Positions 449-63,278 of a DNA stretch of 63,424 nucleotides are shown piece after piece (within the stretch, counting starts at the first letter, position 1; each line of letters starts with the position of its first letter). A model generated the notes under the pieces. The model saw nothing but the letters and a program-made list of their open reading frames with translations. It did not search any database and was not told where the DNA came from. A program made the translations under genes and the position numbers. Location of the stretch: the IMG/VR virus record IMGVR_UViG_3300013093_000002, positions 1-63,424 of that record. The stretch is one strand, 5' to 3'. The DNA comes from a virus. Its lineage: Duplodnaviria > Caudoviricetes.

Positions 449-474
449 AAAAAAAAGCCCACCGAAGTGGGCTT
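449..474 (-). terminator. Rho-independent terminator of the 498-1160 gene
   Basis: Minus strand reads AAGCCCAC-TTCG-GTGGGCTT followed by a T run. Confidence 0.9.
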
Positions 475-497: not shown

Positions 498-1160
498 TTA
501 TGCTTTGCTATATTTAGCTATAACATCATCAAAAAGTTTCTTTAATAATACAGGGTTTTCATCATCAAACTTTTCAGACTTAGTTAAAATCTTTTCAAGG
601 TCTTTTACTAGGTCAAAGGTTGCAACCTTAGGTTCGGACTCGGTTGTATCAAAAAGTTTTTTAGCTGTATCTTGAAGTCTTTTGATAACTGTATTTACCT
701 GACCAACTACTTTATCTTTTCGACTTTGTAACATACCAGCGATAGCCTTGCCATCATCTTTACCAAAATCTAAGTCACCTCTTTTTAAGGGTTTGAAATC
801 AGTAGTTGCTAACCAATTATTACTAGCATGGACTTTGTGACCTGTATGCTTTTCATAACTAGCCTTGCTAATATAAGTCCAATTGTTTTCAACCTTAGCT
901 AAATAACACTCATTAGCTTTACCCTCATCACTTTTTGAATAAGCATCAACTACGCCACTTTTCAAGCCTTGATACATCATAACAGGCAACTTGCTAGGTG
1001 TTACCATGTAAAACTCAAGACACGCATTATAACACTTAGTTGCTAAGTCCACTTTTGTGGACTCAGTTGTAAATGCTCGTTCGCCTATTGTATAAAACTG
1101 AGCAACTGATGAACCCTCTGCTAAACTTGCAATAACTTCTTTTTTTACTGATGTAACCAT
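498..1160 (-). CDS. Hypothetical early protein (220 aa), monocistronic unit
   Basis: Long ORF with an AAGGA RBS, an upstream sigma70-like promoter and its own terminator. No family recognised. Confidence 0.8.
   Translation of the reverse strand: MVTSVKKEVIASLAEGSSVAQFYTIGERAFTTESTKVDLATKCYNACLEFYMVTPSKLPVMMYQGLKSGVVDAYSKSDEGKANECYLAKVENNWTYISKASYEKHTGHKVHASNNWLATTDFKPLKRGDLDFGKDDGKAIAGMLQSRKDKVVGQVNTVIKRLQDTAKKLFDTTESEPKVATFDLVKDLEKILTKSEKFDDENPVLLKKLFDDVIAKYSKA
1046..1063. repeat. Early-region palindrome copy (inside CDS)
   Basis: AGTCCAC-TTTT-GTGGACT. Confidence 0.8.
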
Positions 1161-1217: not shown

Positions 1218-1245
1218 ATTATGAACCATGTATCTATTTTGTCAA
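1218..1245 (-). promoter_or_regulatory. Sigma70-type leftward promoter
   Basis: Minus strand TTGACA-16 nt-CATAAT upstream of the 1160 start. Confidence 0.6.
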
Positions 1246-30231: not shown

Positions 30232-30233
30232 CA

Positions 30234-30797: not shown

Positions 30798-30832
30798 TAT
30801 ATGGTACAATTAAGCAAATTTAAGGACTTTCT

Positions 30833-33626: not shown

Positions 33627-33639
33627 TAAGGAAAACAAT

Positions 33640-35247: not shown

Positions 35248-35249
35248 TT

Positions 35250-38200
35250 ATGCCTAAAATAAACGTACAGGGTTATGGACCTGTAAACTTTCCGGACGAT
35301 ATGTCCCAAGAACAGATTGCTAATGTAATCGAAAACGAATATATCCCACATATGAAACAGCATATCGCTAAGGAAGGTTTTATTCCTGGCGTTAAAGCTG
35401 GTTTACAATCAGGGTTAGGTAATGTAGAAACATTCTTAGGTGAGAATCTAGGTATGCCTTCATTATCTGAAGCTGGTAAACAAAATAAAGCAGAAGCTGC
35501 TACTAAGTATGAAGAACCTTATGCTGGTGAAACTGCCGCTGCATTTCAACGTGGTATTTTACCTGGTGTTGGCACTGCTATATCAAATGTAACAGGTCCT
35601 GTTGGTAATATCTTAGGTACATTTGGTCCTACTGCATTAACAGGTGTTGCTGCTGCTCCTTTACTTCCTGAAGAACTTGCTGGTCTAACTCTAAGCACAG
35701 CTACTCGACGTGCAATTGGTACTACTGTAGCTAACGGGTTTGAAGAAGCTGGTCAAAATATTGATAAACAAAAAGATTTACATCCCGATCAAAAAGTAAA
35801 CTTACTCGCTGCTGATTTAACAGGTCTTATTCAAGGTGCTATTGATACTATTGGTGTGCCTGGACTAGGTAAATTAAGTAATAAATTAGCTCCTCAATTA
35901 GAAAACCAAGCTACTAAATTATCTAAACAAATCGTAGATGGTGAAATAACACACGCAGAAGCTGCTAAAAGCTTATCAAGTAAATGGACTGAATATCTAG
36001 GTTCTACTGCGTCTAACTTTGCTTCAGGTGCTGGTATGATGACTGCAGACGAAGCATTACGTCGTGCACAAGCTGGCGAAGATGTAACAAGTCCTGAAGC
36101 CTTAGAATCTTATAAACATGATATTGGTAGCGCATTATTAATGTCACCTGTATTTGGTGCATATCACGTTCTTACAGGTAGTGGTCGTGGTGAAGCTAAT
36201 AGAAAACTAGATGAAGCCCAAGCTACTAAAACTGCAAAAGACCAAGCTATTGCTGATGCTCAAGCTAAACGTGAGATGGATATTAAAACTGGGGTTATGC
36301 AACAACAACCTATGTTTACTGAAGAGCAAGCACCAAGTCCAGCAGGTCCACCAGCCCCAGAAGCACAAGGTCCATCAACGCTTACACAAGCAGAACCCGA
36401 TCAAATAAATAAAGTTGAGCAATTACAAAAACAACAAGAAGCTGAAGCTGCGGGTCAACAATCTTTATTTGATGAAAAAGGTAAACCTACTCCTGAAATA
36501 GAACAAGAGCAAGCTAAGAGTCGTGTTCAACAAAATCAAGAAAAAGTTAATACATTGTTAGCTACGCCAGAAGGCACTAAGCAAGTAATTGATAATATCA
36601 AGGATTATTTCTTTGACTATACAAAAGCTGACCAAAACAAAATTAGAACTCAGTTACAACAACGCATGAAAGCGTTTACTTTAAAAGACGAAGATGTGCT
36701 AAGTCAAAAACAAAAAGAATATGAACAACTATTCTCTGTTATCGAGCCTGTACCTGAACACGAATTAACTTCACAAAAATTACAAGAAGCAGGCATCAAA
36801 GGTTCTCTTGCAGCGCAATTAAAAGATAAGAGTTTGAAAGACCCGGCGGTATATAATAAAGTTGCAGATGTAGCTAATGATTTAAAAAATACAAATGCAT
36901 CTGCAGCAGCTAAACTATTAGATGGTATTCAAGCACCAGAAGGAGTAAAAAATGTTAAAAGAACTAAGTCCGCAACAGCTGGAGAAAGCGATGCAGTATC
37001 TCTCAAATCCGAAGATGAAACTGACACCGGAACTAGCAGAGATATCAAATCTACAATGGGTTTCAATCGAGTTGATAATGGTAGAGCTCTTGAAGGAGCA
37101 AAAGATGTCAACGCTGCATTAAAAGAAGCTAAGATATATGAAACTAAAGATGAAAGCGGTCAAGAGTATTTAGGTCTTGGTGAGAAGAAAGAAGAAGTAG
37201 CTAAAGAAGAAAAAGCTGCTAAGACTCCTGAAGAAATTAAACAAGCAGAGCTTGATCGTAAAGCCTTATTAGAAAGAGAACAAAAACTATCTAAGAAACT
37301 TCATAAAGCTGGTGAAGAAGCTTCTGATATCTACGCTTCACAAAAAGAAGGTGAAGAAAATAAAAACCTAGATTTATCTACTACAACTCCTGCAGAATTA
37401 ACTGAAGGTTCAACATTCCAAAGAAAATTCAAGAATGCAAAAACACTAGGTGATGCATTAAAAACTCTCAAGAAGATGCCTATTAGTAAAGGTCAACAAG
37501 CCCTTGCTAATTTATTACTCAATACCAAAAATATTTCAGACGTAGCATTTGAAACAGCTAAACATCCACAACCTAAAGATATACGCAAAAAAGGTCCTAA
37601 GACTTACATCGGAGAATTTACTGGTGAAAAGCGTACTATGGGAGAAGAAGCCTCTAAAAAACTAATCAACTATGAGAAGTTTACAGGTGAATATGACTCT
37701 TCCGAAAATAAAGCTAGACTTTATCAATCAGGTAATGCTGAGAGTTTATTACATGAAGGCATTCACGCCGCTACTGCACACGAAATAGATAAACATATTG
37801 ACCATGTACCTGACCCAAGAGGTGCTGCATACGGTGTAACTCCAGTTGCAAAACCTAACTCAGTTATAGGTAAACGTTGGGTAAGAATGTTTAACGCCGC
37901 AAAAGAAGCAGCTAAGAATAGAAATGAAGATTACTATGGTCTAGATGACATACATGAATTCGTAGCAGAAGCTCTTAACCCACATGATAATAAATTTAGA
38001 CAACTATTAAAGAATACAGCACCTACTTCAAAAGCTAAACCAAGAGGTAGACTACCATCACTATTTACTGAATTTATTCAGAACATAATGGACTTATTAG
38101 GTGTTCCACAAAAATATGAAAGTCTATTCCACGAAATATTAGATCATAGTTCTGAACTATTCAAAGGTCCTGATCTATCAATAGATAAAGATGTAGCTAA

Positions 38201-44037: not shown

Positions 44038-44330
44038 ATCCCATCTAAATATTCTTTTGCCTGTTTTAAAGTTTGGGCGGGCAATTCACCAGTATCTAAA
44101 CTTTTTTCAATTTCAGATATTAAACCTTTTATTTGTTCTCTATGAGCAGGTCTTATTTTCCCGCCTCTAAACCAACTATATACACTTCTTGTATCTACTC
44201 CAAATTTATCTGCAACATAAAGTGAAGGAAGGTTAGCCTTAACACATAACTTGGCTAACCTTACCCCTACCGACCTAGACTCTGTCTTTGTTAAAGAGAT
44301 TAGGAACTGTTCACTATATGGTCTTGCCAT
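44028..44330 (-). CDS. Helix-turn-helix DNA-binding protein
   Basis: VADKFGVDTRSVYSWFRG. Confidence 0.75.
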   Translation of the reverse strand: MARPYSEQFLISLTKTESRSVGVRLAKLCVKANLPSLYVADKFGVDTRSVYSWFRGGKIRPAHREQIKGLISEIEKSLDTGELPAQTLKQAKEYLDGIWM

Positions 44331-47996: not shown

Positions 47997-48653
47997 TTAT
48001 TCTTTATGAAACTCACAATCTTTTACTGGACAATATTTACATAGAGGGGAAGGGTTTGCTATCCAAGTGTTTGTATCATATGAGTTATCTAGCCTTGCTA
48101 GCGGTTGTTCAAACTGTTTCCATGAGGCTTCTATACCAGACCTATGATACTCTTCGGGTAAGAAACTATTCTTCATTAGGAACAATAAACCTGCCTTAAT
48201 TTTAATCACTTGTGGGAAGTGAGCATATGTCATCAAAGCCATAAGCCTTAATTGTTTAGGGTCAGGGTATCTATTGCTTCCTGTTTTATAGTCTATGATG
48301 AAAGCGGTATCACCATCCACAATGAGCAAGTCCACAATTCCGCGAACCCAACGATTATCAGCATCGAAAGCACAAGGCGTTTTATCACGCGTAAGAGCCA
48401 TTTCATATTCACAGTATTTGTCTCCTGGTATTTTAATTAATTCATCGACAACATCTTTAAAGCGTTCATAATTTTTAGCTAGTTCAATCTTATCTCTTAC
48501 ATAATCTTCTAATGCCTTATGAACTTCTTTACCATATATAGTCTGAGGTGTATCTTGAAATACATAGTTCTTAGCTACTTTTAATTCATAATACTTCTTA
48601 GGACATTTTGTATATTCACTTAAGGCAGAATAAGACCATGTATAGTTAGCCAT
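47997..48653 (-). CDS. PD-(D/E)XK exonuclease (Cas4/RecB-like, Fe-S cysteines)
   Basis: WSYS....CP...G..VH...RGIVDL...IDYKTG...QL..A...CKYCP...C. Confidence 0.9.
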   Translation of the reverse strand: MANYTWSYSALSEYTKCPKKYYELKVAKNYVFQDTPQTIYGKEVHKALEDYVRDKIELAKNYERFKDVVDELIKIPGDKYCEYEMALTRDKTPCAFDADNRWVRGIVDLLIVDGDTAFIIDYKTGSNRYPDPKQLRLMALMTYAHFPQVIKIKAGLLFLMKNSFLPEEYHRSGIEASWKQFEQPLARLDNSYDTNTWIANPSPLCKYCPVKDCEFHKE

Positions 48654-54184: not shown

Positions 54185-54445
54185 TTATTTTTTTGATTTT
54201 AGATATTCTTGAATGTCTCTAGCATACCATTCTATTTTGCCTGCTTCTTGAATAGGGTCGTCTTTGTCACCTAAACGACTAGCATATGCTATAAGAGTGC
54301 CTTTGATATAACCACAATATTCCTCTGTGGTTAGTTTTGCTTTGATGTAATCTGATGTTTCTATGCCACCTTTTGTGTAGTGAGATGGGCTATTTACCAT
54401 ATCAGATGTTATGGGTTTTGCTCCTGCGCCTTGTGTTTCTGTCAT
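54185..54445 (-). CDS. DUF3310-family protein
   Basis: DMVNSPSHYTKGGIE..DYI...GY..G...K..WY. Confidence 0.85.
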   Translation of the reverse strand: MTETQGAGAKPITSDMVNSPSHYTKGGIETSDYIKAKLTTEEYCGYIKGTLIAYASRLGDKDDPIQEAGKIEWYARDIQEYLKSKK

Positions 54446-54729
54446 TATAGTCCTTTCATTAGGGTTATAAGTTCTTCTATATTACTCTCATTTACCACGA
54501 TTGCCAAGCCTTTATTATTGTTTATTAGGTTGATGTTGTGTTTTTGCAACTCAGTAAGTTTGTTATTACCTGCCTTACATTCTATCCCTATAAACTTTCC
54601 CTTATGACATACAACGATGTCAGGCACACCACTACTGCCATATCCACCTGTCTGTGGGAAAAAATAATAACATCCGACAATATCTAAAATTCTTTTAACT
54701 TGTTTCTTTACTTTGGCTTCGGGTGTCAT
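54445..54729 (-). CDS. VRR-NUC / Holliday junction resolvase-like nuclease
   Basis: TPEAKVK...GVPDIV...FIGIECKA...TELQ. Confidence 0.88.
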   Translation of the reverse strand: MTPEAKVKKQVKRILDIVGCYYFFPQTGGYGSSGVPDIVVCHKGKFIGIECKAGNNKLTELQKHNINLINNNKGLAIVVNESNIEELITLMKGL

Positions 54730-54912
54730 TTATATATTTCTTTCTATAAACTCTTTCATATCAATTATTTGTTTCCGTAAGGCTTCAACTTCATATCGCA
54801 TTGGTCTTAGCTGTCTATTAATTATTTCTATTCTTATAGACTCATGTAATTCTTCTAAATCAATTAATGGTATTCTTTTTAAATCAAAATAATGCTTAGA
54901 CCCCTCCATCAT
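54730..54912 (-). CDS. Hypothetical protein
   Basis: ORF in operon. Confidence 0.55.
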   Translation of the reverse strand: MMEGSKHYFDLKRIPLIDLEELHESIRIEIINRQLRPMRYEVEALRKQIIDMKEFIERNI

Positions 54913-55132: not shown

Positions 55133-55286
55133 ATATTCTACTTACTCCTTCAAAGATACCTAATAAATCATTAGGCTTAAAATCATTCTTGTTAAATGAG
55201 AATGGTGACTTTCTACCATTAGCGTGCTTGATATACCCTGTGACTACAATTTGTTCTACGATAATTTGTTTCTCTTTAGTTACCAT
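55101..55286 (-). CDS. Hypothetical protein
   Basis: ORF in operon. Confidence 0.55.
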   Translation of the reverse strand: MVTKEKQIIVEQIVVTGYIKHANGRKSPFSFNKNDFKPNDLLGIFEGVSRIYEPRRTETKT

Positions 55287-55632
55287 CTTTTACACCTTTT
55301 AGTTCGTTGAGTTGCTCTTCATCTAAGATAACTATATAGAATGACTTTGATGCTCGCCAACCTATATACTCCATATTTTTAACAGGACAATTATACATTT
55401 GAAATTCAAACAAATCTCTATCCTCTGCTACTTTGTCAGGCGATGATGCCTTTGCAAATGTAAGTTTAGCTTTAATATAATTAGGCAAAGTGTGTTCGTT
55501 AAATATTCTACGATGTCCTCTGCCTACAAACACATTATACTCATCACTTACATACACAGGAACTTTGTATAAGATTTCTGTCCTAGAAGTTTCTATGGGT
55601 TCTATAACTTCTATTATAAGATTTTGAAACAT
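55276..55632 (-). CDS. Hypothetical protein
   Basis: AAGGA RBS just downstream of a palindrome copy. Confidence 0.7.
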   Translation of the reverse strand: MFQNLIIEVIEPIETSRTEILYKVPVYVSDEYNVFVGRGHRRIFNEHTLPNYIKAKLTFAKASSPDKVAEDRDLFEFQMYNCPVKNMEYIGWRASKSFYIVILDEEQLNELKGVKDGN

Positions 55633-55647: not shown

Positions 55648-55666
55648 AGTCTACATGATGTAGACT
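55648..55666. repeat. Early-region palindrome copy (intergenic)
   Basis: AGTCTACA-TGA-TGTAGACT. Confidence 0.9.
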
Positions 55667-56688
55667 TATTGTAATTGAACTAAGATATTTCCTTTGGTGT
55701 CACGAACTTCTATACCCCATCTAGAGTCGGGATAGTTTTTATCAAAGTCCCAGTATTTTACTTTAGTAAATGTATTATGTAAAGTCTTGAGCCTATCACT
55801 AAATTTCTTTTTAAAGAATTGAAAATATATTATTGGTTTATATCTTGAAGGGTTATTATTACTAGCTATCCAATACATATCATGAATACCGAACCCAATC
55901 ATATATAAATAACTTGCCGATACATAATCAGTTTGCCATAACTCATCAGCTTTATTTAATATAACTTCACTATGATAATTATCTGCATTATCATTAGATA
56001 CATACTCATTAAATACATCTCTAACAGTATCAGCAAAGGATTCATTGTCCAATGTATGCATAAATGATTTAATTATATTAAGTCTTTCTTTCTCAGTTTT
56101 CATGACTACATTAGACTTAGCTCTATCTACATAGGGTATATCTATTGAATACCTTGATGACTCATGCAATTCAAATGTATCTATATTATATCTAAAGCCT
56201 TTGAATACAGGTATTTTAAGATTATGCACATAAGACTTGATAATATTGCCACCAGCTCTAGATGATTTCATGGCAAATACTCTATGAGGTAAGTATTGAC
56301 TCCATATCATATTTGAACCTTGATGCAAACTATTATGAGTTAGCTCTGCCGTATTATCATCTCTAACGATAAATATTGGTTTTTTATCATGGTTCCATAT
56401 AGAGTAATAAGGTATGTTAGCCATGTTTTTCCATCGGTATCCTAAGGCTGAATGATATTTATCAAACTTTTCAGGGTCATGTTCTTTCATCTGTTCAGCT
56501 TCATATGGGTCAAGATAATCTTCTACGAACCCACCCCAATAGTAAAGATGATATTCAATCTTACCATCAACTTCTACGACTTTAAAGTATTTATGTCTAT
56601 GAGTTCTACTAGCATACGGATACTCATCAGTATTCCGATAAGGTTTTGTGTTTGCTACTATTTCTTGTAAGGTTTTATAGCTTATCAT
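55666..56688 (-). CDS. Hypothetical early protein (340 aa)
   Basis: Long ORF; no family recognised. Confidence 0.8.
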   Translation of the reverse strand: MISYKTLQEIVANTKPYRNTDEYPYASRTHRHKYFKVVEVDGKIEYHLYYWGGFVEDYLDPYEAEQMKEHDPEKFDKYHSALGYRWKNMANIPYYSIWNHDKKPIFIVRDDNTAELTHNSLHQGSNMIWSQYLPHRVFAMKSSRAGGNIIKSYVHNLKIPVFKGFRYNIDTFELHESSRYSIDIPYVDRAKSNVVMKTEKERLNIIKSFMHTLDNESFADTVRDVFNEYVSNDNADNYHSEVILNKADELWQTDYVSASYLYMIGFGIHDMYWIASNNNPSRYKPIIYFQFFKKKFSDRLKTLHNTFTKVKYWDFDKNYPDSRWGIEVRDTKGNILVQLQ

Positions 56689-57900
56689 TTAGTCTTCCTT
56701 TCTAATAACTTTACCATAGGTTGTAGGGAAATTACTTCGTTGCGTTATTAACCACAATGTCGGTGATGTGATGTTCCATTTAATATCATCTTCAACATAG
56801 CCGTCGGTAAATACAATGACTGCCTCAGTTTGTATCTTATGTTTATTTATATATTCACTCACACTTGATACATGAGTTCCACCACCACCTTCGGGTTTTA
56901 GTAATGACGCAATAGCATTGTATTGACTAGGTTCAAACACTTGCATCGAATGGACTTCGGTATCCCACCATAACACACGAACTTTTGATGGACTACTTAC
57001 TTCACAAATCGTCACCAGTTCCGTTGCAAACTCTGTAAGCTCTACGCTACCTATTGAACCTGATGTATCAATCGCTACAATTAATTCACCCATACTCTCG
57101 TTCTCAATAGATGGCATATAAATATCATTGACCATAAGTCTTTTGTTAAACCTTCGCCAAGTATATTCATCACTACCACGAGTCGCACTAGATATGAACT
57201 CACGCAATACCTCACGCCAATTAACTTTTGGTGTAAGTAAGTCTTGTATGGTTCTTGGTATCTTAGCACCGAGCCTGCCTGCCAATAGACTACCTTGCCT
57301 TATTGCATTGTCTATCTTACTTGCTTGCTCTGCTACTTGTTCAGGTGACATTGTTTGTGCGTTCTCAAAGTCGTGGTCATCTAATGTTTTCATATCTGAT
57401 ACATCGGGCTGACCATTACCATTGAGTCCACTACCTGTAGACTCACCCTTAGATTTCTTATCTTGTTGCTCTTTCTGTTTTTGTTTAAGATAGTTATATA
57501 CTTCACGCACAGACCAATTATGAAACTTTGCATCATACAATGCATCATCGGGCAACTTAACTATGTTAGGGTTAAGTTGCTTAATAACATCGTTCACAAC
57601 ATAGTCGGCGGCGACATTAACTAAGTGAGGCTCTGCCTTAAACTCTTTGGTAAATCGTTGTATGTGTTTGAATGCGACATGAAGGTTCTCATGCATCACT
57701 AAGCCACATAACTCTTGGTCGGTTAGACCTTCAATAAACTTTCTACCATACTTCTTATTGACGCCGTCGGTGTATGCAGTAATATCTTTATCCTCAACAC
57801 TACTCTTACCCATAAGGATAACACCCGAATACAATGCCGTGTCAGTATAGTTGAGCAAGGCAACATGAGCCTTCTTTAACCTCATCTCTTGACTAGCCAT
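56689..57900 (-). CDS. Metallopeptidase-vWA protein (DUF2201-like)
   Basis: TAYTDG, MHENLH (HEXXH), NVAADYVVN; MIDAS IDTSGS, GGGT, FTDGY. Confidence 0.9.
   Translation of the reverse strand: MASQEMRLKKAHVALLNYTDTALYSGVILMGKSSVEDKDITAYTDGVNKKYGRKFIEGLTDQELCGLVMHENLHVAFKHIQRFTKEFKAEPHLVNVAADYVVNDVIKQLNPNIVKLPDDALYDAKFHNWSVREVYNYLKQKQKEQQDKKSKGESTGSGLNGNGQPDVSDMKTLDDHDFENAQTMSPEQVAEQASKIDNAIRQGSLLAGRLGAKIPRTIQDLLTPKVNWREVLREFISSATRGSDEYTWRRFNKRLMVNDIYMPSIENESMGELIVAIDTSGSIGSVELTEFATELVTICEVSSPSKVRVLWWDTEVHSMQVFEPSQYNAIASLLKPEGGGGTHVSSVSEYINKHKIQTEAVIVFTDGYVEDDIKWNITSPTLWLITQRSNFPTTYGKVIRKED
57425..57443. repeat. Early-region palindrome copy (inside CDS linker)
   Basis: AGTCCACT-ACC-TGTAGACT. 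Confidence 0.8.
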
Positions 57901-57912
57901 ATTTCCTCCTTG

Positions 57913-57930
57913 AGTCTACAAGTGTAGACT
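57913..57930. repeat. Early-region palindrome copy (intergenic)
   Basis: AGTCTACA-AG-TGTAGACT. Confidence 0.9.
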
Positions 57931-57935
57931 TGTTA

Positions 57936-59009
57936 TTAAAATAACTCATGGTTCTCTGATGCCCACTTCGTAATCTCTAGATTACTACGAGCTAGCTTTC
58001 TAGTCTTATCACTACGGATAATCATAGTAAAGAATATCGCTTGTATCTCAGAGCTATCAATACGCTTAACAAACTTCATGAATGATGATAGTTCATCTTG
58101 AGTCTTGAGTCTATCTGTCGCTTGGAACATTAACATGAGTTGACCTGCCATATCCTCTGGAATATTAATATCCATTGGGTTCTCAATAATCTTGTCAAAC
58201 TCTGGTAATTGCTTATCAAGTTTAAGGAACGCACTCATATCTGCACTTGCACTCGCACCGATAGTCCCTGCCAATGCACACATCGTCGCATTATCACCAA
58301 TGACATCTTGGTTATCTACAATGACTGACGCTTTAGCTAATGAACGAGGGCTACAGAAAGATAGCACAGGCTTACTAGGATTAAAGATATATGGGTTATC
58401 CTCTTGACCTACATCAAGATAACTATTCAATGCTCTTGGGAACATATACACCCATGCTCTAATCAACGGATTGATATTGTTATTGCCTGCCCACTTGAGC
58501 CATGTATCCACATCGGGCTTTTGCATTTTCAATATACACACACGATTGCCTGCATGAGCTAACATCGTATCACCTACACCATCACTTGCATTGTTACTTG
58601 TGCCGAACACGATTGAGCCTTGTGGTAACTCTACATCACCGACACATCTCTCTAGCATTAACCTAGTAAAGATAACTTGTAATAACTTCGGTGACTTCAT
58701 GAACTCGTCTAGTAAGATAACCTTAGGCTTTGGACTATCTAGTTTAAACAAATTACCGACATAGCTCTCTAGTGTTTTGCTTTCGTGGTTCGGAATAGTC
58801 ATAGATATATCTGACATATCTTTCACAGGGCAATCTACATAGATATAATCATAGCTATCACCTAAGTCTTGCTCAATCATTTTGAGTAATGATGTCTTAC
58901 CACAACCTGGCTCTGATTGAATGATTGGTGTTAATTCTTTACCGATAGTTGGAATTATTTTTCTTAACTCGTCTATCGTTACACTTGCTACATTACTTAT
59001 TGTCGCCAT
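57936..59009 (-). CDS. MoxR-like AAA+ ATPase
   Basis: SEPGCGKTS, ILLDEF, TSN...DGV, NR, SPRS; adjacent vWA partner gene. Confidence 0.88.
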   Translation of the reverse strand: MATISNVASVTIDELRKIIPTIGKELTPIIQSEPGCGKTSLLKMIEQDLGDSYDYIYVDCPVKDMSDISMTIPNHESKTLESYVGNLFKLDSPKPKVILLDEFMKSPKLLQVIFTRLMLERCVGDVELPQGSIVFGTSNNASDGVGDTMLAHAGNRVCILKMQKPDVDTWLKWAGNNNINPLIRAWVYMFPRALNSYLDVGQEDNPYIFNPSKPVLSFCSPRSLAKASVIVDNQDVIGDNATMCALAGTIGASASADMSAFLKLDKQLPEFDKIIENPMDINIPEDMAGQLMLMFQATDRLKTQDELSSFMKFVKRIDSSEIQAIFFTMIIRSDKTRKLARSNLEITKWASENHELF

Positions 59010-59187
59010 GTTTATCTCCTCTAGTTTGTTTTAAAATACTTTCTGCCGTTGCTTGTATAATTTTACTTCTATCTCGTTCTGACATTCGTTTTAATTCTCT
59101 TTGCATACGAAGATGATGGACAATCTCAATGGTCTTGGCACAAAGAAACCCACACCCAAACCCTACTGCTAATGCTAGATACTGCAT
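58993..59187 (-). CDS. Small membrane-anchored protein
   Basis: AGGAG RBS; hydrophobic N-terminus. Confidence 0.6.
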   Translation of the reverse strand: MQYLALAVGFGCGFLCAKTIEIVHHLRMQRELKRMSERDRSKIIQATAESILKQTRGDKHGDNK

Positions 59188-59197
59188 ATGCTACTCC

Positions 59198-60118
59198 TTA
59201 TAGTTTAAATTTATTTAAGATACCTTCTACATCTGACTTCACTTTCTCACGAACTGCATCACTCTCTCGTAAGACTTCTGAGTCTACACCTTGTAGACTA
59301 TACTCCAACTTGTTGACTGCGTCGCTAAGCCGTTTAGTCATCTCATTGTCTACGGGTTTAAATGCTTTAAATGTGTTACATAACTCTTTAGCTTTTTCGA
59401 TTGTGGTATCATATATTTTGCGTTTCTTCGTTTTAGTTTCGCCTGTGACGGCGTCGGTAGTTTCTGACACTCCACAGCAATAGCTGATACTTTCCATAAC
59501 TTCTGTAATCCGTTCCACTTGGTCTTGAATGACATGATTGATAATCCCTTCTGCTTGCTTTTCGTATTGTTGTTTTAAATCATCAGCGATATCGTTAGAG
59601 ATACTGCATCGCCAATCATGACTCGGCACTTCACTTACATATAACTTGATACCGAACTTGCTACGGACTTCATTGACATCGGGATAATCATGCCTATTAA
59701 ACATATCGCCTTGCTTAAATGCCATGTTACCTACGATTGTAGAATAGTTGTTTACAAAACTATCAAGTAACCTATTGAACTCTACCTCATGCTCAGTATA
59801 TTCTTGTTTGAACTTGGTGAGATTAACTACGGGTAATAAGTCTTGAGAGTTGTTCCACCTAAATGTGCTACGCTTCAACCAATTATATATAGTCTGACGA
59901 TAATTAGATAAACGCTTGTGGAATTGGTCATCAGCTAAAAGGTTCTTCACAAATCTGCCTGCACTTGCGTCGGCTTTCTTGAGACTAGTTACCTCGTCTG
60001 ATATACCTCTGTCTTGCTTTGTTGCTGACCACACATTCACATCAACGGACACCAATACTGCCGATGTCGCTAAAGAAATGATATGGTTCGGTTGTTCCAT
60101 TTCAAATGATAGTTCCAT
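59198..60118 (-). CDS. Conserved early protein accompanying AAA/vWA modules (DUF3150-like)
   Basis: AVLV.V...WSA.K.D...K.LL...LLP...F...DYP...LRE...R pattern. Confidence 0.65.
   Translation of the reverse strand: MELSFEMEQPNHIISLATSAVLVSVDVNVWSATKQDRGISDEVTSLKKADASAGRFVKNLLADDQFHKRLSNYRQTIYNWLKRSTFRWNNSQDLLPVVNLTKFKQEYTEHEVEFNRLLDSFVNNYSTIVGNMAFKQGDMFNRHDYPDVNEVRSKFGIKLYVSEVPSHDWRCSISNDIADDLKQQYEKQAEGIINHVIQDQVERITEVMESISYCCGVSETTDAVTGETKTKKRKIYDTTIEKAKELCNTFKAFKPVDNEMTKRLSDAVNKLEYSLQGVDSEVLRESDAVREKVKSDVEGILNKFKL
59281..59299. repeat. Early-region palindrome copy (inside CDS)
   Basis: AGTCTACA-CCT-TGTAGACT. Confidence 0.9.
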
Positions 60119-60137
60119 ACTGCTCTCCTAGTTAATG

Positions 60138-60156
60138 AGTCTACACCATGTAGACT
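60138..60156. repeat. Early-region palindrome copy (intergenic)
   Basis: AGTCTACA-CCA-TGTAGACT. Confidence 0.9.
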
Positions 60157-60199
60157 CTACATAAATGCTATACACACTTTTCCCATCGTCTAATATATA

Positions 60200-60228
60200 A
60201 TTATACCATAGATTACAAAAAAAGTCAA
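60200..60228 (-). promoter_or_regulatory. Strong sigma70-type early promoter
   Basis: TTGACT-17 nt-TATAAT with a TG extension. Confidence 0.85.
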
Positions 60229-60239
60229 TAGCCCCCTAC

Positions 60240-60689
60240 TTAAACATTAAACTCAAAACTTCTATTTATATTCATTAAACTATACCCATCATCACCACCA
60301 TACTCTTCTTCAAAGTCATTTATCTCTTCACCAATTCTTATCTTGGCATATGATATGGGAAGGCTAATTAAGTCCTCTGTATTGTCATACATATCTGAAT
60401 ACTCTTGTGCTAATACTATTAAAGACTCATGACACTTAACATCATCAAACGAGTCATACCATTTCACATCATAGGCACTATACTTTATAAAGCACTCACC
60501 TTGATTGATAGTTAGTAAGTCCCAATCACTTTCTTCAAAGCAATCTTTTGTATCCTCTCTTGACTTGGCATCAGCTAAGAATACATTGAATAAACCTTCT
60601 TTAGTGACTCGTTTATCTATTGGTGTGTCATCTTTATACTTAGGCTCATGAAATTGGATAACATAGCCTACATCTGAACGATAGCCCAT
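60240..60689 (-). CDS. Acidic early protein
   Basis: MGYRSDV...VKWY..F.DV...RIGEE..D pattern recalled from phage early genes. Confidence 0.75.
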   Translation of the reverse strand: MGYRSDVGYVIQFHEPKYKDDTPIDKRVTKEGLFNVFLADAKSREDTKDCFEESDWDLLTINQGECFIKYSAYDVKWYDSFDDVKCHESLIVLAQEYSDMYDNTEDLISLPISYAKIRIGEEINDFEEEYGGDDGYSLMNINRSFEFNV

Positions 60690-60690
60690 T

Positions 60691-61005
60691 TTAAATATCC
60701 TTTGGTGTAATTAGTTTCTCGGCATACGCTATGGCATCTTGTATGGCTTGGTCTTCAAATAATTCCTTAGGCGATACATATGTCTCAGCATGAACAGGTT
60801 CACTCGGTAAAGTTCCTAGTTCCAGTCTGATTGCGTGAAGTAGTTCCCTTGCTAATTCATAACGACCACGCACACCACTATCGTCATTGTAATCATCTAA
60901 ACCAGTTCCATTGATGCTCTCAGCGTCATACTTTAATTCACGACGCAAACTTGTTATAACTTTGTTAAGTATGCGTTCATACTTTGATGTTACTCTTTTA
61001 TTCAT
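60691..61005 (-). CDS. Hypothetical early protein
   Basis: GGAG RBS just after a palindrome copy. Confidence 0.7.
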   Translation of the reverse strand: MNKRVTSKYERILNKVITSLRRELKYDAESINGTGLDDYNDDSGVRGRYELARELLHAIRLELGTLPSEPVHAETYVSPKELFEDQAIQDAIAYAEKLITPKDI

Positions 61006-61019
61006 AATTTTCTCCGTTG

Positions 61020-61038
61020 AGTCTACAATGCGTAGACT
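61020..61038. repeat. Early-region palindrome copy (intergenic)
   Basis: AGTCTACA-ATG-CGTAGACT. Confidence 0.88.
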
Positions 61039-61040
61039 TA

Positions 61041-61250
61041 TTAAAATGCACTATTGATAACTCTTTGTGCTACTCGTTTCTTTAGCTTAGGGGTTGATAG
61101 CTTAGAATACATATCATGATAATTCCAATACTCCCTTTGAGTAGCTTTCTCGTTGTCTTTAATTCTGCCGTCGATAGTATAGTCATAGCCATGTGATGCT
61201 TTTTTAGCTAACCATTCAATCGCCTCAGCTCTGTTAAACTTAGTCATCAC
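61041..61250 (-). CDS. Hypothetical early protein
   Basis: GGAGG RBS. Confidence 0.65.
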   Translation of the reverse strand: MMTKFNRAEAIEWLAKKASHGYDYTIDGRIKDNEKATQREYWNYHDMYSKLSTPKLKKRVAQRVINSAF

Positions 61251-61533
61251 ACTTACCTCCGATACAAGTTTTATCCAAGATTTCGTTTTCCAAATCCTCC
61301 ATGATAGCTTGACTTTCTAATAACATTACTTTCATGTTGATATTTTCAAACGCATTAGGGAACGCTTCAATGACAAGACTTCTAACCATCATGCCTCTGT
61401 CTTTTAGGTTTTCACCTATCTGAGCTTTGACATAATCTTCGGGAACGACTTGCCACTCTTCTAACTCTTTAAGTCTACTTTCGTGGACTCCAACTTCTAC
61501 AACTGCGATGAACTTCTTAAACTGACTGCTCAT
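61240..61533 (-). CDS. Hypothetical early protein
   Basis: AAGGAG RBS. Confidence 0.7.
   Translation of the reverse strand: MSSQFKKFIAVVEVGVHESRLKELEEWQVVPEDYVKAQIGENLKDRGMMVRSLVIEAFPNAFENINMKVMLLESQAIMEDLENEILDKTCIGGKCDD
61472..61489. repeat. Early-region palindrome copy (inside CDS)
   Basis: AGTCTAC-TTTC-GTGGACT. Confidence 0.8.
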
Positions 61534-61640
61534 GATATTACTCCTTGTAGTTTAAATACGATTTCTGTGAATACGCAACCAAATACAAAAGCCATGATGT
61601 GCGTAGTTATAATTAGCATTACTTTATCTTTGTTACTCAT
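61530..61640 (-). CDS. 36-aa membrane peptide (absent from the ORF track)
   Basis: MSNKDKVMLIITTHIMAFVFGCVFTEIVFKLQGVIS; GAGG RBS; ATGA overlap with the next gene. Confidence 0.65.
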   Translation of the reverse strand: MSNKDKVMLIITTHIMAFVFGCVFTEIVFKLQGVIS

Positions 61641-61764
61641 ATGTTGCCTCACCTTCCATTGAATAGTATTCATCTTCAAGTTTATTTCTTTTAGCTTCAA
61701 GTTCCTCAATTTCTACATCTAATTTTATTAACTCTTGTCTTAGCTTTTCTTTTTTGTTACTCAT
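61633..61764 (-). CDS. 43-aa coiled-coil peptide (absent from the ORF track)
   Basis: MSNKKEKLRQELIKLDVEIEELEAKRNKLEDEYYSMEGEATYE; AGGAG RBS. Confidence 0.65.
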   Translation of the reverse strand: MSNKKEKLRQELIKLDVEIEELEAKRNKLEDEYYSMEGEATYE

Positions 61765-61967
61765 TTTGTTTCTCCTTTTACTTTTCGCATGACTGCAAAT
61801 GCGACTTGTTCTCTTAAAAACTTATCACTATAATTCTGATACTTAACTTTCCCAAACCAGTTCTCTATGCCTGCCTCTATGTTTTCTTGTATGCGTAGAG
61901 TTTCAACCATAGCCTCTCGTTCTTTTTTAGGTATGTAAGTTTTGCCTTCTTTACTTAGTTCTCTCAC
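61761..61967 (-). CDS. Hypothetical early protein
   Basis: GGAGG RBS; GTG start. Confidence 0.65.
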   Translation of the reverse strand: MRELSKEGKTYIPKKEREAMVETLRIQENIEAGIENWFGKVKYQNYSDKFLREQVAFAVMRKVKGETK

Positions 61968-61983
61968 TTCATATTCCTCCCCT

Positions 61984-62349
61984 TTAAAATTTTGGTGTAG
62001 TCCAACCTGAGTCTACACTATGTGGACTCAAGACCTTATCCATACAATACCCAACGATACCATAGTCTGCAATAGAAATCAATTCGTTCGTGTCTACCCA
62101 TTTAGATACATGGTCTGGTCGAGCTTGGCTTTGTTGCCTTGATGTGCTTGGTGAATACTTATCTTTATTACCTATCCACATACAAGCCACGCTATCCCAA
62201 ACATACATAGGAAAATGATAGCCATAACTATAAACTACATAGTTCTTGCCGACACCACAATTAAACCATTCACCAAACATATTACTTGCTTTAAATGGTT
62301 CTAACGCTTTAATGCTTTCAATCGCTTTTTTGTTTGATGTTCTCGTCAT
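61984..62349 (-). CDS. Conserved phage early protein
   Basis: YVVYSYG.HFP...W..N.DKYS.STSRQQ. Confidence 0.75.
   Translation of the reverse strand: MTRTSNKKAIESIKALEPFKASNMFGEWFNCGVGKNYVVYSYGYHFPMYVWDSVACMWIGNKDKYSPSTSRQQSQARPDHVSKWVDTNELISIADYGIVGYCMDKVLSPHSVDSGWTTPKF
62010..62028. repeat. Early-region palindrome copy (inside CDS)
   Basis: AGTCTACA-CTA-TGTGGACT, extended by TG/CA. Confidence 0.88.
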
Positions 62350-62561
62350 TTAACTAGCCCTCCTTTATTGTTAAGACCTTTTAAGTCTGCTTGATTAGTG
62401 ATAACCATGTAATTACTTTTGTGCATTGGTGCTATGGTATGTTTCTTTTGCTTAGCTATCTCGTCACCACATTGTAAACAGGTGTTATAGCCTAAGTCCC
62501 ACCGAGCTTGTAATACATGACTGAAACACTTAACGCATAGATTGTTATACTCATTAGCCAT
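62346..62561 (-). CDS. Small C4 zinc-finger protein
   Basis: CVKC...R..LGY..CLQCG...PMHKSNY. Confidence 0.75.
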   Translation of the reverse strand: MANEYNNLCVKCFSHVLQARWDLGYNTCLQCGDEIAKQKKHTIAPMHKSNYMVITNQADLKGLNNKGGLVK

Positions 62562-62766
62562 GACTATTCCCTTCTGCTTGTTGAAATGCTTTTTCTATCC
62601 TAAGTTGGTTGAGTAAATCGTGCAATTCGGCTATGGGCTTTTTCCACCTACGCTTGATATGCCATGCGAGTCTCTTACCTTCTTTGGTATTGGTATGAAC
62701 AAAAAACGCCTCTTTCCATATATCGTTTAAAACTTTGTTCCTTTCAATAGCGTCTTTCAATGCCAT
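62554..62766 (-). CDS. Hypothetical early protein
   Basis: Start re-assigned to MALKD (GAGGG RBS), which makes the upstream palindrome intergenic. Confidence 0.6.
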   Translation of the reverse strand: MALKDAIERNKVLNDIWKEAFFVHTNTKEGKRLAWHIKRRWKKPIAELHDLLNQLRIEKAFQQAEGNSHG

Positions 62767-62780
62767 AACTTTACCCTCTG

Positions 62781-62799
62781 AGTCTACTCGTTGTAGACT
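62781..62799. repeat. Early-region palindrome copy (probably intergenic)
   Basis: AGTCTACT-CGT-TGTAGACT. Confidence 0.85.
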
Positions 62800-62816
62800 T
62801 GAAACGCCATCACTAC

Positions 62817-63161
62817 TCACTTCAACCACCATGCGATAACAAACCCTACACAAACCCACACAAGAGCTTCAATAAATTTATCCATGAATGTCTTATCTCC
62901 CTTAAAAGATTCTAAACCAATACTATTCCTTATTTTCTTTTCTTCTGCCTGCCTTTGTTTAGCCCAATCATTTAAGCGATAATTGCGTCTGACTAATGCT
63001 TTGCGTCGTAGGTCTGCATAATTGTGGTTAGCTTCATTTAGTTTTTGGACTAGCTTGATGTTTTGATTAACATAAGCCACAGACTTTCTAACCTTGTCTA
63101 CTTCTTTCTTTTGTTCATCATCTAACAAGTGACCATAGCCACCATATTTTTTATCTTGCAT
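62817..63161 (-). CDS. Early protein with C-terminal membrane anchor
   Basis: GGAG RBS; ALVWVCVGFVIAWWLK tail. Confidence 0.75.
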   Translation of the reverse strand: MQDKKYGGYGHLLDDEQKKEVDKVRKSVAYVNQNIKLVQKLNEANHNYADLRRKALVRRNYRLNDWAKQRQAEEKKIRNSIGLESFKGDKTFMDKFIEALVWVCVGFVIAWWLK

Positions 63162-63191
63162 TTTACTATCTCCAATTAGTTTAAAAATATA

Positions 63192-63210
63192 AGTCTACAA
63201 AGTGTAGACT
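63192..63210. repeat. Early-region palindrome copy (intergenic)
   Basis: AGTCTACA-AAG-TGTAGACT. Confidence 0.9.
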
Positions 63211-63249
63211 CAACATACATCAATGGACAAAGCTCTGCCCATTATTAAC

Positions 63250-63278
63250 ATTATACCCTAGTTTAAGCCTTTTGTCAA
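63250..63278 (-). promoter_or_regulatory. Perfect-consensus sigma70 early promoter
   Basis: TTGACA-17 nt-TATAAT. Confidence 0.9.

What the first reader, a model, noticed from the sequence alone, without database searches (positions are those of the whole stretch)
55648..63210. Eleven copies of the palindrome AGTCYAC-N4-5-GTRGACT mark only the early region, including inside genes
Seen: copies at 55648, 57425, 57913, 59281, 60138, 61020, 61472, 62010, 62781, 63192 and, across the circular junction, 1046. That is about 8.7 kb with spacing of 0.4-1.8 kb. I saw none in the other ~54 kb by eye, and chance expectation is roughly 0.002 per genome assuming equal base frequencies. Six copies sit just upstream of an RBS, two of them about 35 nt after consensus promoters. 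Five lie within coding sequence (encoding TESTKVDL, GESTGSGL, YSLQGVDS, GVHESRL, SPHSVDS), so the motif is kept despite protein constraint. The C/T variants give a G-U pair on the mRNA in one copy (57425) but a C-A mismatch in others (61472, 62010), which favours dsDNA recognition over an RNA hairpin. Inference: a region-wide binding-site array. It could silence early genes, protect or pull in the first-injected DNA, act as parS-like loading sites, or serve as recombination points that shuffle early genes. Candidate binders are the HTH protein (44028-44330), an ejected virion protein or a host factor. I do not recognise it as a described element.
Basis: partly seen in the sequence, partly recalled or inferred. 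Interest (0 to 1): 0.85.

Follow-up and report, generated by a model that had tools for sequence, protein, structure and literature searches.

The report
Lineage-specific palindrome array in phage early arm
An uncultured lake phage marks only its early genes with eleven copies of one DNA palindrome, and its relatives mark the same gene junctions with palindromes of their own, which points to an unidentified phage protein that reads them.

Summary
All 11 copies of AGTCYAC-N4-5-GTRGACT exist (0 in 100 shuffles). Allowing 2 mismatches adds one chance-level hit elsewhere.

All copies lie in the leftward early arm, which has host-type promoters.

Of 36 relatives with enough flank, 24 carry such an array. 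Each clade has its own stem (TTCGAC, CCTGAC, CGTGGG, CCTAGA, CGTATY, TTCAC, CCCACG), often at equivalent stop-to-RBS junctions. In five larger contigs checked, the array is confined to one 9-10 kb span.

Tests favour a dyad-symmetric dsDNA site over an mRNA hairpin:
- Single-mismatch copies give C·A 11, G·U 2, transversions 18.
- Flanks are symmetric without extra pairing.
- Spacers show no orientation bias, 32 vs 31.
- One relative's first site lies upstream of its first promoter.

My best reading (about 0.5) is a stoperator-like operator array read by a co-evolving phage dimer.

Closest published analogue: the 17-bp dyad repeats of Cluster O mycobacteriophages, function unknown.

This scan has noted similar arrays on other phage DNA.

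The parts
63192..63210 (.). Palindrome copy in the 5' leader of the first early operon. Its centre lies about +42 from the promoter, and it is 30 nt before the start of gene 62817-63161.
62781..62799 (.). Palindrome copy 17 nt after the stop of gene 62817-63161 and 14 nt before an ATG with an AGAGGG RBS. By the longest-ORF rule it would lie inside the GTG-started frame 62554-62859.
62010..62028 (.). Palindrome copy in the last codons of gene 61984-62349 (peptide SPHSVDS), 42 nt before the next start. It has a C·A arm mismatch on the mRNA strand. The ~98% identical strain L065 has a perfect copy here with a different spacer.
61472..61489 (.). Palindrome copy (4-nt spacer) inside gene 61240-61533 at aa 15-21 (GVHESRL). 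It has a C·A arm mismatch on the mRNA strand.
61020..61038 (.). Palindrome copy in an intergenic spacer, 2 nt after a stop and 14 nt before the start of gene 60691-61005.
60138..60156 (.). Palindrome copy in the leader of the internal early operon. Its centre lies about +46 from the promoter, and it is 19 nt before the 306-aa gene. The arrangement is orthologous in L131, L175, L182 and L187, each with its own palindrome.
59281..59299 (.). Palindrome copy inside the 306-aa gene at aa 274-280 (SLQGVDS), 83 nt before its stop.
57913..57930 (.). Palindrome copy (4-nt spacer) between the AAA ATPase stop (5 nt away) and the DUF2201/VWA gene start (12 nt away). Most relatives have no site at this junction; several have their own.
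57425..57443 (.). Palindrome copy inside the DUF2201/VWA gene (ESTGSGL), in a hypervariable linker. The sister clade (L131, L134) has its own palindrome at the same point. It has a U·G arm pair on the mRNA strand.
55648..55666 (.). Last palindrome copy. It overlaps the stop of the 340-aa gene and lies 15 nt before the 118-aa gene.
1046..1063 (.). Palindrome copy (both arms the C/G variant, 4-nt spacer) inside the head-of-array gene at aa 33-39 (ESTKVDL). Its centre lies about +156 from the gene's promoter.
498..1160 (-). Head-of-array gene (220 aa), monocistronic. It is nearly lineage-specific and is predicted to form a symmetric homodimer.
1218..1245 (-). Sigma70-type promoter (11/12 match) of the head-of-array gene.
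455..474 (-). Intrinsic terminator (UUCG loop plus T run) closing the head-of-array gene.
63250..63278 (-). Consensus sigma70 promoter (12/12) of the first early operon.
60200..60228 (-). Sigma70-type promoter (11/12 with TG extension) of the internal early operon.
54445..54729 (-). VRR-NUC/Hjc-like small nuclease gene. In eight relatives' loci (L131, L161, L175, L181, L182, L187, L195, L205) the last site of the array abuts its orthologue, so it marks the downstream border of the array. In this window the last site lies about 900 nt upstream of it.

Best explanation
The eleven palindromes are dyad-symmetric double-stranded DNA sites, an operator array. A phage-encoded protein, probably a dimer, reads them, and its specificity co-evolves with the sites.

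The array covers exactly the host-RNA-polymerase-transcribed early arm: the head gene, the control region and the first ~9 kb of early operons. Binding most likely shuts down or gates early transcription. It would do so partly at promoters or leaders (sites at about +42 to +54, or next to a -35 box) and partly as roadblocks inside the operons, as stoperators do in Cluster A mycobacteriophages.

Shown:
- the sites, their restriction to the early arm, and their nucleotide-level conservation;
- clade-specific turnover of the sequence, with several junctions shared between clades and others gained or lost;
- the statistical signatures of dyad rather than hairpin conservation.

Inferred: that a protein binds, that it is phage-encoded and dimeric, and that the effect is repression. 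The monocistronic, lineage-specific head-of-array protein (498-1160) is only a weak candidate.
For: 1. Non-random and region-restricted. There are 11 copies against 0 in 100 shuffles, and only 1 chance-level near-match elsewhere. Given uniform placement, 10 further copies falling in the same 8.7 of 63.3 kb has probability about 2e-9 (my arithmetic).

2. Kept at the nucleotide level. The five intragenic copies are read in three frames. The DUF2201 copy sits in a hypervariable linker.

3. Same architecture, different sequence in relatives. 81 loci were found through the DUF2201 protein (80 relatives plus the window). 45 were dropped for having under 5 kb upstream or under 3.5 kb downstream. Of the remaining 36, 24 have at least 5 copies of one stem (shuffle maximum 1-3), 5 have 3-4 copies and 7 have none. 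The 36 include three near-identical or identical pairs. Types are clade-specific on the protein tree: 13 changes against a shuffled mean of 24.9, as low in 0 of 200. The sister clades' half-sites are related (gTCTAC vs tTCGAC).

4. Confined genome-wide to one 9-10 kb span. G003 (97% complete) has 5 sites in 31061-40588. G007 has 7 in 29696-39600. G006 has 9, and G011 and G012 have 11 each. The TTCGAC motif has 0 matches in three contigs of other lineages.

5. dsDNA rather than mRNA hairpin.
(a) Among 31 single-mismatch copies in the 29 loci that had a core (of 78 loci examined), 2 are G·U, 11 are C·A and 18 are transversions. This count includes orthologous duplicates and 3 copies of an unrelated G-rich hairpin in L140.
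(b) Flank positions are conserved symmetrically without an excess of Watson-Crick pairs. Window -1/+1 gives WC 3 vs 5.5 expected, L131 gives 1 vs 3.6, and L195 gives 1 vs 3.3.
(c) Spacers show no orientation bias relative to transcription: 32 purine-rich vs 31 pyrimidine-rich of 85 sites in 10 lineages. 16 spacers are self-complementary, and spacers are 75% A+T.
(d) In L163 the first site lies 5 nt upstream of the -35 box of the first early promoter, in a divergent intergenic region with no sizeable upstream + strand gene.
(e) Relatives that lack palindromes use classical UUCG/GNRA RNA hairpins between early genes, which is a different element.

6. Promoter-linked placement. The site centre is at +42 to +54 from the strong internal promoter in the window, L131, L175, L182 and L187.

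7. Phage-intrinsic. No repeat family appeared in one genome per species: 69 loci, 68 with a single site and one with two.

8. Weak support for a dimeric lineage-specific factor. The head-of-array protein has only 4 homologues among 1.84 billion representatives. The homodimer model scored 0.78, with the best of 3 controls at 0.00. The runs agree in at least 96% of contacts, and partner pLDDT is at least 80. That mark was reached by 20 of 30 proteins solved as pairs of one chain and 1 of 23 solved as single chains. These counts hold only roughly because my own alignment was used.

9. Published precedent for such arrays: PMC4351075, PMC9283540 (abstract in the listing) and PMC6550527.
Against: - No binding protein is identified. 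No early-arm protein scanned has a Pfam or PHROGs DNA-binding domain that reaches its cut-off.
- The head-of-array gene also exists, by position and size, in palindrome-less lineages. Profile comparison does not show that the lineages' head proteins are homologous (probabilities below 1%).
- All window copies lie in transcribed DNA. Six lie just 5' of an RBS, and each would fold as an RNA hairpin of about -8 to -11 kcal/mol that leaves the RBS free. An RNA-level role therefore remains possible.
- Spacer length varies within this genome: 4 nt in 3 copies and 5 nt in 8. A rigid dimer on B-DNA would tolerate that poorly.
- L195/L205 have a one-sided 'AG' flank, and L194 shows copy-specific stem extension. 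Both hint at strand-specific or hairpin features.
- The C·A over G·U excess is larger than the 1:1 expected for pure dsDNA. It could point to a template-strand hairpin.
- 7 of 36 relatives do without any array.
- There are no expression or binding data.
Confidence: 0.5

Rival explanations
1. RNA-level element. The palindromes act as hairpins in the early mRNAs and are read by a lineage-specific phage RNA-binding protein or endoribonuclease. That protein would process, stabilise or translationally gate individual early cistrons.
For: All 11 window copies are in transcribed DNA, and 6 lie 12-30 nt before a start codon. The typical place in relatives is stop codon, hairpin, then RBS. Predicted RNA hairpins leave the RBS free. 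Spacer length varies (4 or 5 nt), which a stem reader tolerates. Palindrome-less relatives fill similar early junctions with ordinary UUCG RNA hairpins. L194 shows copy-specific stem extension, and L195/L205 have a one-sided flank.
Against: G·U is not favoured on the mRNA strand: 2 G·U vs 11 C·A and 18 transversions. There is no pairing excess in the flanks. Spacers show no orientation preference (32 vs 31), and many are self-complementary and AT-rich, unlike stable RNA loops. Intragenic copies far from any RBS are unexplained. The L163 first site lies upstream of the first promoter. No Rfam family matches at the sites. No RNA-binding or RNase domain was found.
Confidence: 0.22
2. Structure-dependent DNA element. 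The sites extrude as cruciforms or template-strand hairpins. They would be used by a structure- or site-specific nuclease, primase or similar DNA-transaction enzyme, for example the conserved VRR-NUC/Hjc-like protein, the PD-(D/E)XK nuclease or endonuclease VII. The purpose would be replication or recombination initiation, or nicking of the early arm.
For: C·A on the mRNA strand is G·T on the template strand, and it is the commoner mismatch (11 vs 2). AT-rich centres favour extrusion (established knowledge). In eight relatives' loci the last site abuts the VRR-NUC-like gene. The genome encodes Endonuclease_7 (1478-1783), VRR-NUC/Hjc-like (54445-54729) and PDDEXK_1 (47997-48653) proteins.
Against: These nucleases also occur in palindrome-less lineages, and their families are structure-selective rather than sequence-selective. 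Nothing explains why only the early arm is marked. There is no virion or phage RNA polymerase to read hairpin promoters. There is no pairing excess beyond the invariant core.
Confidence: 0.1
3. Cassette joints. The repeats serve mainly as short homologies that shuffle early genes between co-infecting relatives, like the PeSLs of T4-type phages.
For: Sites flank small, fast-turning-over early genes and are gained or lost junction by junction. One strain breakpoint lies 23 nt from site 63192. PeSL precedent: PMC2839356 (abstract read).
Against: 4 of 5 breakpoints between ~98% identical strains are not at sites, and the one gene-sized indel (54730-54912) lies outside the array. Homology-driven exchange needs no dyad symmetry, yet symmetry is what survives complete sequence turnover. 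The sites carry no promoter-plus-terminator unit, and there is no T run after the stems.
Confidence: 0.06
4. Host-factor sites. The palindromes bind or titrate a host regulator or nucleoid protein, and differ between clades because the hosts differ.
For: An unrelated 64-kb phage (G001) carries 3 exact copies and 1 one-mismatch copy with the same arms at stop-start junctions. That could reflect a shared host factor. Earlier notes of this scan report host-operator arrays in other phages (unchecked notes).
Against: No bacterial or archaeal representative genome holds more than two copies of the 8-N3-8 form (69 loci). Sister clades at 68% protein identity already have different half-sites, and CGTATC vs CGTATT differ within one clade. 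Such turnover seems too fast for a conserved host regulator (my inference). The motifs match no host operator that I could name (recall only, not tested).
Confidence: 0.05

Closest known systems
17-bp dyad repeats of Cluster O mycobacteriophages (Corndog: TGTTCGG-N3-CCGAACA), PMC4351075, passages read
   Same: Both have 7-bp invariant inverted arms with a short variable spacer, in many copies. In both, many copies lie in short intergenic regions and about a third lie inside genes. Neither shows an orientation bias of the spacer relative to transcription. The phages are not obviously temperate. The authors infer a dimeric DNA-binding protein, and the function is unknown.
   Different: The Cluster O repeats are spread through the whole genome (34 copies, denser at one end), whereas here 11 copies are confined to the early arm. 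The five Cluster O genomes share one repeat, whereas here each clade of relatives has its own. This genome has spacers of 4-5 nt.
Stoperators of Cluster A mycobacteriophages (L5 gp71-type repressors), PMC9283540 (abstract, listing) and PMC6550527 (passages)
   Same: There are many copies of one short site inside transcription units (the papers read; the typical place between a stop codon and the next start is my recall). Site motif and reader specificity diverge together between related phages. Stoperators act on transcription elongation as well as at promoters.
   Different: Stoperators are asymmetric 13-bp sites in one orientation and are read by a monomeric repressor of a temperate phage. 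They lie across both arms of the genome. Here the sites are dyad-symmetric and orientation-free, only in the early arm, and no integrase or repressor was found among the proteins scanned.
KorB-OB operators of plasmid RK2 (ParB-family CTPase clamp), PMC11790492 (abstract read)
   Same: One palindromic operator is repeated across a replicon and used for multi-operon silencing, including action at a distance from promoters.
   Different: No ParB/KorB-like domain was detected in any protein scanned here. The plasmid system has a known reader and partner (KorA).
PeSL (promoter-early stem-loop) cassettes of T4-type phages, PMC2839356 (abstract read)
   Same: Repeated short elements with a stem-loop punctuate arrays of small early genes.
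   Different: A PeSL is a sigma70 promoter plus a terminating stem-loop, and it mediates recombination. Here there is no promoter or terminator in the unit, and strain breakpoints mostly miss the sites.
Hairpin early promoters of coliphage N4 read by the virion RNA polymerase (recalled, no paper read)
   Same: Short DNA hairpins (5-7 bp stem, 3-nt loop) lie in the early region of a podovirus. A template-strand hairpin would fit the C·A over G·U bias.
   Different: N4 has about three such promoters and a giant virion RNA polymerase. Here there are 11 sites, host-type promoters upstream, an RBS that often abuts the stem, and no RNA polymerase detected.

Membership tests
Cluster O-type dyad repeat arrays (descriptive class, function unknown) | Invariant short inverted arms with a variable short spacer, in many copies in one phage genome | tested here: met
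   11 copies. 17 of 22 arms are the T/A form (AGTCTAC / GTAGACT); the other 5 carry the C/G variant at arm position 5.
Cluster O-type dyad repeat arrays (descriptive class, function unknown) | A mix of intergenic and intragenic copies, with no spacer orientation bias relative to transcription | tested here: met
   6 intergenic and 5 intragenic copies. 32 purine-rich vs 31 pyrimidine-rich spacers over 10 lineages.
Cluster O-type dyad repeat arrays (descriptive class, function unknown) | Distribution throughout the genome | tested here: not met
   All copies lie in one 8.7-kb arm. The same holds in the relatives' larger contigs.
Stoperators (Cluster A mycobacteriophages) | Asymmetric site in one orientation relative to transcription | tested here: not met
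   The sites are dyad-symmetric and their spacers show no orientation bias.
Stoperators (Cluster A mycobacteriophages) | Sites inside operons, typically in short stop-to-start spacers | tested here: met
Stoperators (Cluster A mycobacteriophages) | Read by the phage immunity repressor; the phage is temperate | tested here: inconclusive
   No repressor or integrase domain appears among the proteins scanned.
N4-type hairpin promoters | A virion-packaged RNA polymerase that reads them | tested here: not met
   The largest virion protein (1907 aa) matches polyvalent/internal-core-type clusters. It has no PDB sequence hit and no RNAP family match.
REP/REPIN-like host repeats | Many copies in a cellular genome, with an associated RAYT transposase | tested here: not met
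   69 loci in 185,579 species' genomes, 68 with a single site and one with two. The scan used only the 8-N3-8 form of the motif.
PeSL cassettes | The unit contains a sigma70 promoter and a terminating stem-loop, and recombination breakpoints fall at the units | tested here: not met
   No promoter or T run belongs to the unit. 1 of 5 strain breakpoints is near a site.
Protein-read RNA hairpins (boxB/N type, coat-protein operator type) | Pairing is maintained on the transcribed strand: G·U is tolerated, C·A is avoided, and the loop is read in one orientation | tested here: not met
   G·U 2 vs C·A 11. No spacer orientation bias.
ParB/KorB-type operator systems | A ParB-family CTPase is encoded with the sites | tested here: not met
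   No ParB-like hit in any scanned protein. Remote homologues cannot be excluded.

The most novel reading that the evidence does not exclude
Virulent aquatic podoviruses carry an immunity-like 'early-arm lock'. It consists of a fast-evolving phage dimer plus about ten dyad operators that gate the whole early programme. Its specificity diversifies clade by clade because related phages compete inside the same cells, so a phage already in the cell silences the early arm of a superinfecting relative of the same type. This would be heteroimmunity without lysogeny. It would explain both the rapid co-turnover of sites and the repeated loss of the system.
Probability: 0.13. Interest if true: 0.8.

Novelty: new variant of a known kind. 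Interest (0 to 1): 0.6.

Why it matters
If the reading holds, a large and widespread group of uncultured freshwater and marine podoviruses controls its whole early programme through one repeated operator. That operator's sequence is rewritten in every clade.

This would be a natural series of orthogonal protein-site pairs. It would also give a handle for predicting early regions, and possibly cross-exclusion groups, directly from metagenomic phage genomes.

It would also give a testable function to the 'orphan' dyad repeats published for Cluster O mycobacteriophages, and to similar arrays this scan has noted on unrelated phages.

What is still missing is the reader protein and any binding or expression data.

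Tried and rejected
- N4-style hairpin promoters. No RNA polymerase was found. The 1907-aa virion protein resembles polyvalent/internal-core proteins, and the RBS often abuts the stem.

- Host REP-like family. The genome-contig scan gave 69 scattered loci. Only the 8-N3-8 form was scanned.

- RNA evidence. No RNA holder is listed for this stretch. Read laying was not used, because contigs of DNA runs cannot show RNA ends.

- Rfam. There is no match at the sites. The one sub-threshold hit (mcrA, 18.5 bits vs a gathering score of 57.6) lies elsewhere.

- Reader search by phyletic pattern. The first hit, the VRR-NUC/Hjc-like 94-aa protein (10 of 17 positive vs 0 of 6 negative loci), was an artefact of my ORF calling. 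tblastn finds the gene in nearly all loci. The tblastn-based repeat gave no clean candidate. Its top hits look like shadow-frame ORFs.

- Fast-evolving early proteins (340 aa and 118 aa). The models are confident (pLDDT 89.6 and 87.5), but Foldseek found no PDB match (best E 0.63 and 0.59). The Atlas search with the 118-aa protein gave no usable hit, and the word-index search with the 340-aa protein found only 6 relatives without names. Both proteins also occur in palindrome-less lineages.

- HTH 44028-44330 as reader: rejected by co-variation.

- Head-of-array proteins as one family: not shown (hhalign probabilities below 1%; no Pfam domain). A gene of the same size and position also exists in palindrome-less lineages.

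- Substitute asymmetric repeats in palindrome-less lineages: none found by 10-mer counts.

- Recombination joints: 1 of 5 strain breakpoints is near a site.

- Terminator scan upstream of the first site in L161: inconclusive.

- Literature. Searches found no description of this array in this phage group. PMC4331800 was checked and is not comparable. Supplementary files were not consulted.

Full report
**What is there.** None occurred in 100 dinucleotide-preserving shuffles, and none with the backwards control pattern. Allowing two mismatches adds a single hit outside the array (51555), which is what chance gives. The record is a virus genome with a 123-bp terminal repeat, so copy 1046 continues the array across the junction.

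**Gene context.** Genes from about 41 kb to 63 kb, plus 498-1160 and 1838-2182, are on the minus strand, and the structural genes are on the plus strand. On the coding strand the unit reads R-AGTCYAC-(4-5 nt)-GTRGACT-Y-A. Three strong sigma70-type promoters drive the minus-strand arm (63278-63250, 60228-60200, 1245-1218), and a clean terminator follows gene 498-1160. No phage RNA polymerase was found. The sites therefore lie in DNA transcribed by the host polymerase. Six copies sit 12-30 nt before a start codon, and two of these lie in promoter leaders at about +42 and +46. Five are inside genes, read in three different frames. The motif is thus kept at the nucleotide level.

**Relatives.** GenBank phages share no nucleotide similarity with the early arm. 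One virion protein finds only distant podovirus relatives. The holders among public runs are lake and freshwater metagenomes. Searching viral contigs with the early DUF2201/VWA protein gave 80 loci at 47-100% identity.

Relatives carry recurrent palindromes too, but each lineage has a different one. Examples are TTCGAC-atat-GTCGAA (11 copies), CCTGAC(A)-N3-(T)GTCAGG (9-10), CGTGGG-attt-CCCACG, CCTAGA-aaat-TCTAGG, CGTATC/CGTATT and CGTGTC. TTCAC and CCCACG types also occur.

They sit at equivalent places. These are directly after a stop codon and before the next RBS, in the leader of the orthologous internal promoter (+42 to +54), and inside the hypervariable linker of the DUF2201 protein (window, L131 and L134). 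Individual junctions gain and lose sites.

Of the 36 loci with enough flank (45 of 81 dropped), 24 have an array, 5 are borderline and 7 have none. On a tree of the DUF2201 protein each type forms its own clade, and 'none' is scattered. The window's clade is sister to the TTCGAC clade, and the two half-sites share four of six positions (gTCTAC against tTCGAC). In the larger contigs each motif is confined to one 9-10 kb span, and one lineage's motif is absent from the others.

**What this implies.** Dyad symmetry, copy number, and the extent and approximate placement of the array persist, while the sequence is replaced. The sites must therefore be read by something that changes with them. A host factor is unlikely. 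No representative bacterial or archaeal genome has more than two copies, and sister clades already differ. A phage-encoded reader is the economical inference.

**DNA or RNA?** Five tests were possible.
1. Among single-mismatch copies, pairs that stay paired in the mRNA (G·U) are rare: 2, against 11 C·A and 18 transversions. This count includes orthologous duplicates. After collapsing them by eye it is roughly 9 to 2.
2. Positions flanking the invariant core are conserved symmetrically but not complementarily. In the window, for example, there is a purine at -1 and a pyrimidine at +1, with A/C combinations four times.
3. Spacers are AT-rich, often self-complementary, and show no orientation preference relative to transcription (32 vs 31).
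4. In L163 the first site lies 5 nt upstream of the -35 box of the first early promoter, in a divergent intergenic region. At least that site is probably not in the early mRNA.
5. Relatives without palindromes have ordinary UUCG or GNRA RNA hairpins between their first early genes. This shows what RNA-level hairpins look like in this group.

These results favour a dyad-symmetric dsDNA site.

Several points count against this. Spacer length varies within this genome. L195/L205 have a one-sided flank, and L194 has copy-specific stem extension. The hairpins would fold in RNA. The C·A excess itself could mean a template-strand hairpin.

**Who reads it?** This was not settled.
- An apparent association with a small VRR-NUC/Hjc-like nuclease was an artefact. 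The last site does abut this gene in eight relatives' loci.
- Two fast-evolving early proteins have confident but unmatched folds, and they also occur in palindrome-less lineages.
- The most suggestive candidate is the gene at the head of the array. Nine lineage representatives checked have a 180-260-aa ORF there, with the first site about 110-140 nt upstream of its start or inside its 5' part. In the window it is monocistronic, with its own promoter and terminator. It has only 4 homologues among 1.84 billion representatives.
- The homodimer model for this protein scored 0.78, with the best of 3 controls at 0.00. The runs agree in at least 96% of contacts, and pLDDT is at least 80. The mark was reached by 20 of 30 proteins solved as pairs of one chain and 1 of 23 solved as single chains. 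These counts are only rough because I used my own alignment.
- However, the lineages' head proteins are not demonstrably homologous and have no known domain. A gene of the same size and place also exists where there is no array.

**Mechanism proposed.** A phage dimer binds the operators and gates host-polymerase transcription of the early arm, at leaders and promoters and as roadblocks within operons. Only the anatomy and its evolution are shown. Binding, dimer-site matching and the direction of the effect are inferred.

**Comparison with what is known.** The nearest published description is the 17-bp dyad repeat of Cluster O mycobacteriophages. It has 7-bp arms and a 3-bp spacer in 34 copies, about a third of them in genes, with no orientation bias and an unknown function (PMC4351075). 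It differs in being genome-wide and shared by all five genomes.

Stoperators share the position inside operons and the co-divergence with a reader. They are asymmetric, oriented, monomer-bound and belong to temperate phages. KorB/OB and PeSLs are looser analogies.

This scan's own earlier notes describe similar early-arm palindrome arrays on unrelated phages and on two relatives of this window. I re-found those two independently. My literature searches found no description for this phage group. Supplementary files were not consulted.

**Verdict.** It is best classed as a new variant of a known but functionally unsolved kind of phage repeat. The new elements are restriction to the early arm and clade-by-clade rewriting of the palindrome, often at equivalent junctions.

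Noticed in passing
L124 (G001:C1) 955-973, 1907-1925, 2431-2449, 4635-4653: An unrelated 64-kb phage shares one small DUF6321 protein with the window. It carries 3 exact copies and 1 one-mismatch copy of AGTCTAC-TCCGA-GTAGACT, the same arms as the window. The copies at 1907, 2431 and 4635 lie at stop-to-start junctions of a small-gene array; the context of 955 was not resolved.
   Followed up: partly
L141 2383-3367; L145 3880-4324; L136 3557-4437; L186 3202-4540; L184 3622-5156: Relatives without palindrome arrays have GC-rich UUCG or GNRA-loop hairpins (GGGG[GA]C-ttcg-G[CT]CCCC followed by TTCTT) between their first early genes. These are RNA-type hairpins or weak terminators in the same stop-to-RBS niche.
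   Followed up: partly
window 55666-56688 (-) and 55276-55632 (-): Two widely conserved early proteins (340 aa and 118 aa) evolve much faster than their neighbours (median 27% and 33% identity vs 55-72%). Their models are confident (pLDDT 89.6 and 87.5) with no PDB fold match. Many orthologues of the 118-aa family end in a basic DTRSKSK tail.
   Followed up: partly
window 1478-1783 (+) and 1838-2182 (-): An Endonuclease_7 (T4 endo VII-type) gene lies on the opposite strand inside the leftward arm, next to a SprT-like HExxH protein. It may be a homing-type insertion.
   Followed up: no
window 54730-54912 (-): This 60-aa ORF is present in the window but absent from three ~98% identical strains (L065, L101, L128). 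It has no homologue in any of the 77 relatives searched.
   Followed up: no
window 61740-63065: This tract is only 92.8% identical (with 36 gap columns) to strain L065, while the flanks are ~99% identical. It is a mosaic replacement covering the first early genes, and the palindrome arms inside it are kept while the spacers change.
   Followed up: partly
window 63221-63244 (-): A second 10-bp hairpin lies at the very 5' end of the transcript predicted from the consensus promoter, just before the palindrome copy. The leader folds at -20.9 kcal/mol (z = -3.7).
   Followed up: no
window 35250-40973 (+): This 1907-aa virion protein has a C-terminal part that matches DarB-like antirestriction PHROG 10089. 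The Atlas places it among LPD38/39 and MuF_C polyvalent or internal-core clusters. It is probably an injected multi-domain protein.
   Followed up: no
window 56689-57900 (-), residues ~140-175: The linker between the DUF2201 metallopeptidase-like and VWA domains is hypervariable in length and composition across relatives (from about 10 to more than 60 residues).
   Followed up: partly
window 62346-62561 (-): This 71-aa early protein is conserved in 51 of 77 relatives' loci. It has sub-threshold zinc-ribbon matches (DksA/TraR C4 type), so it may be an RNA-polymerase-directed factor.
   Followed up: no
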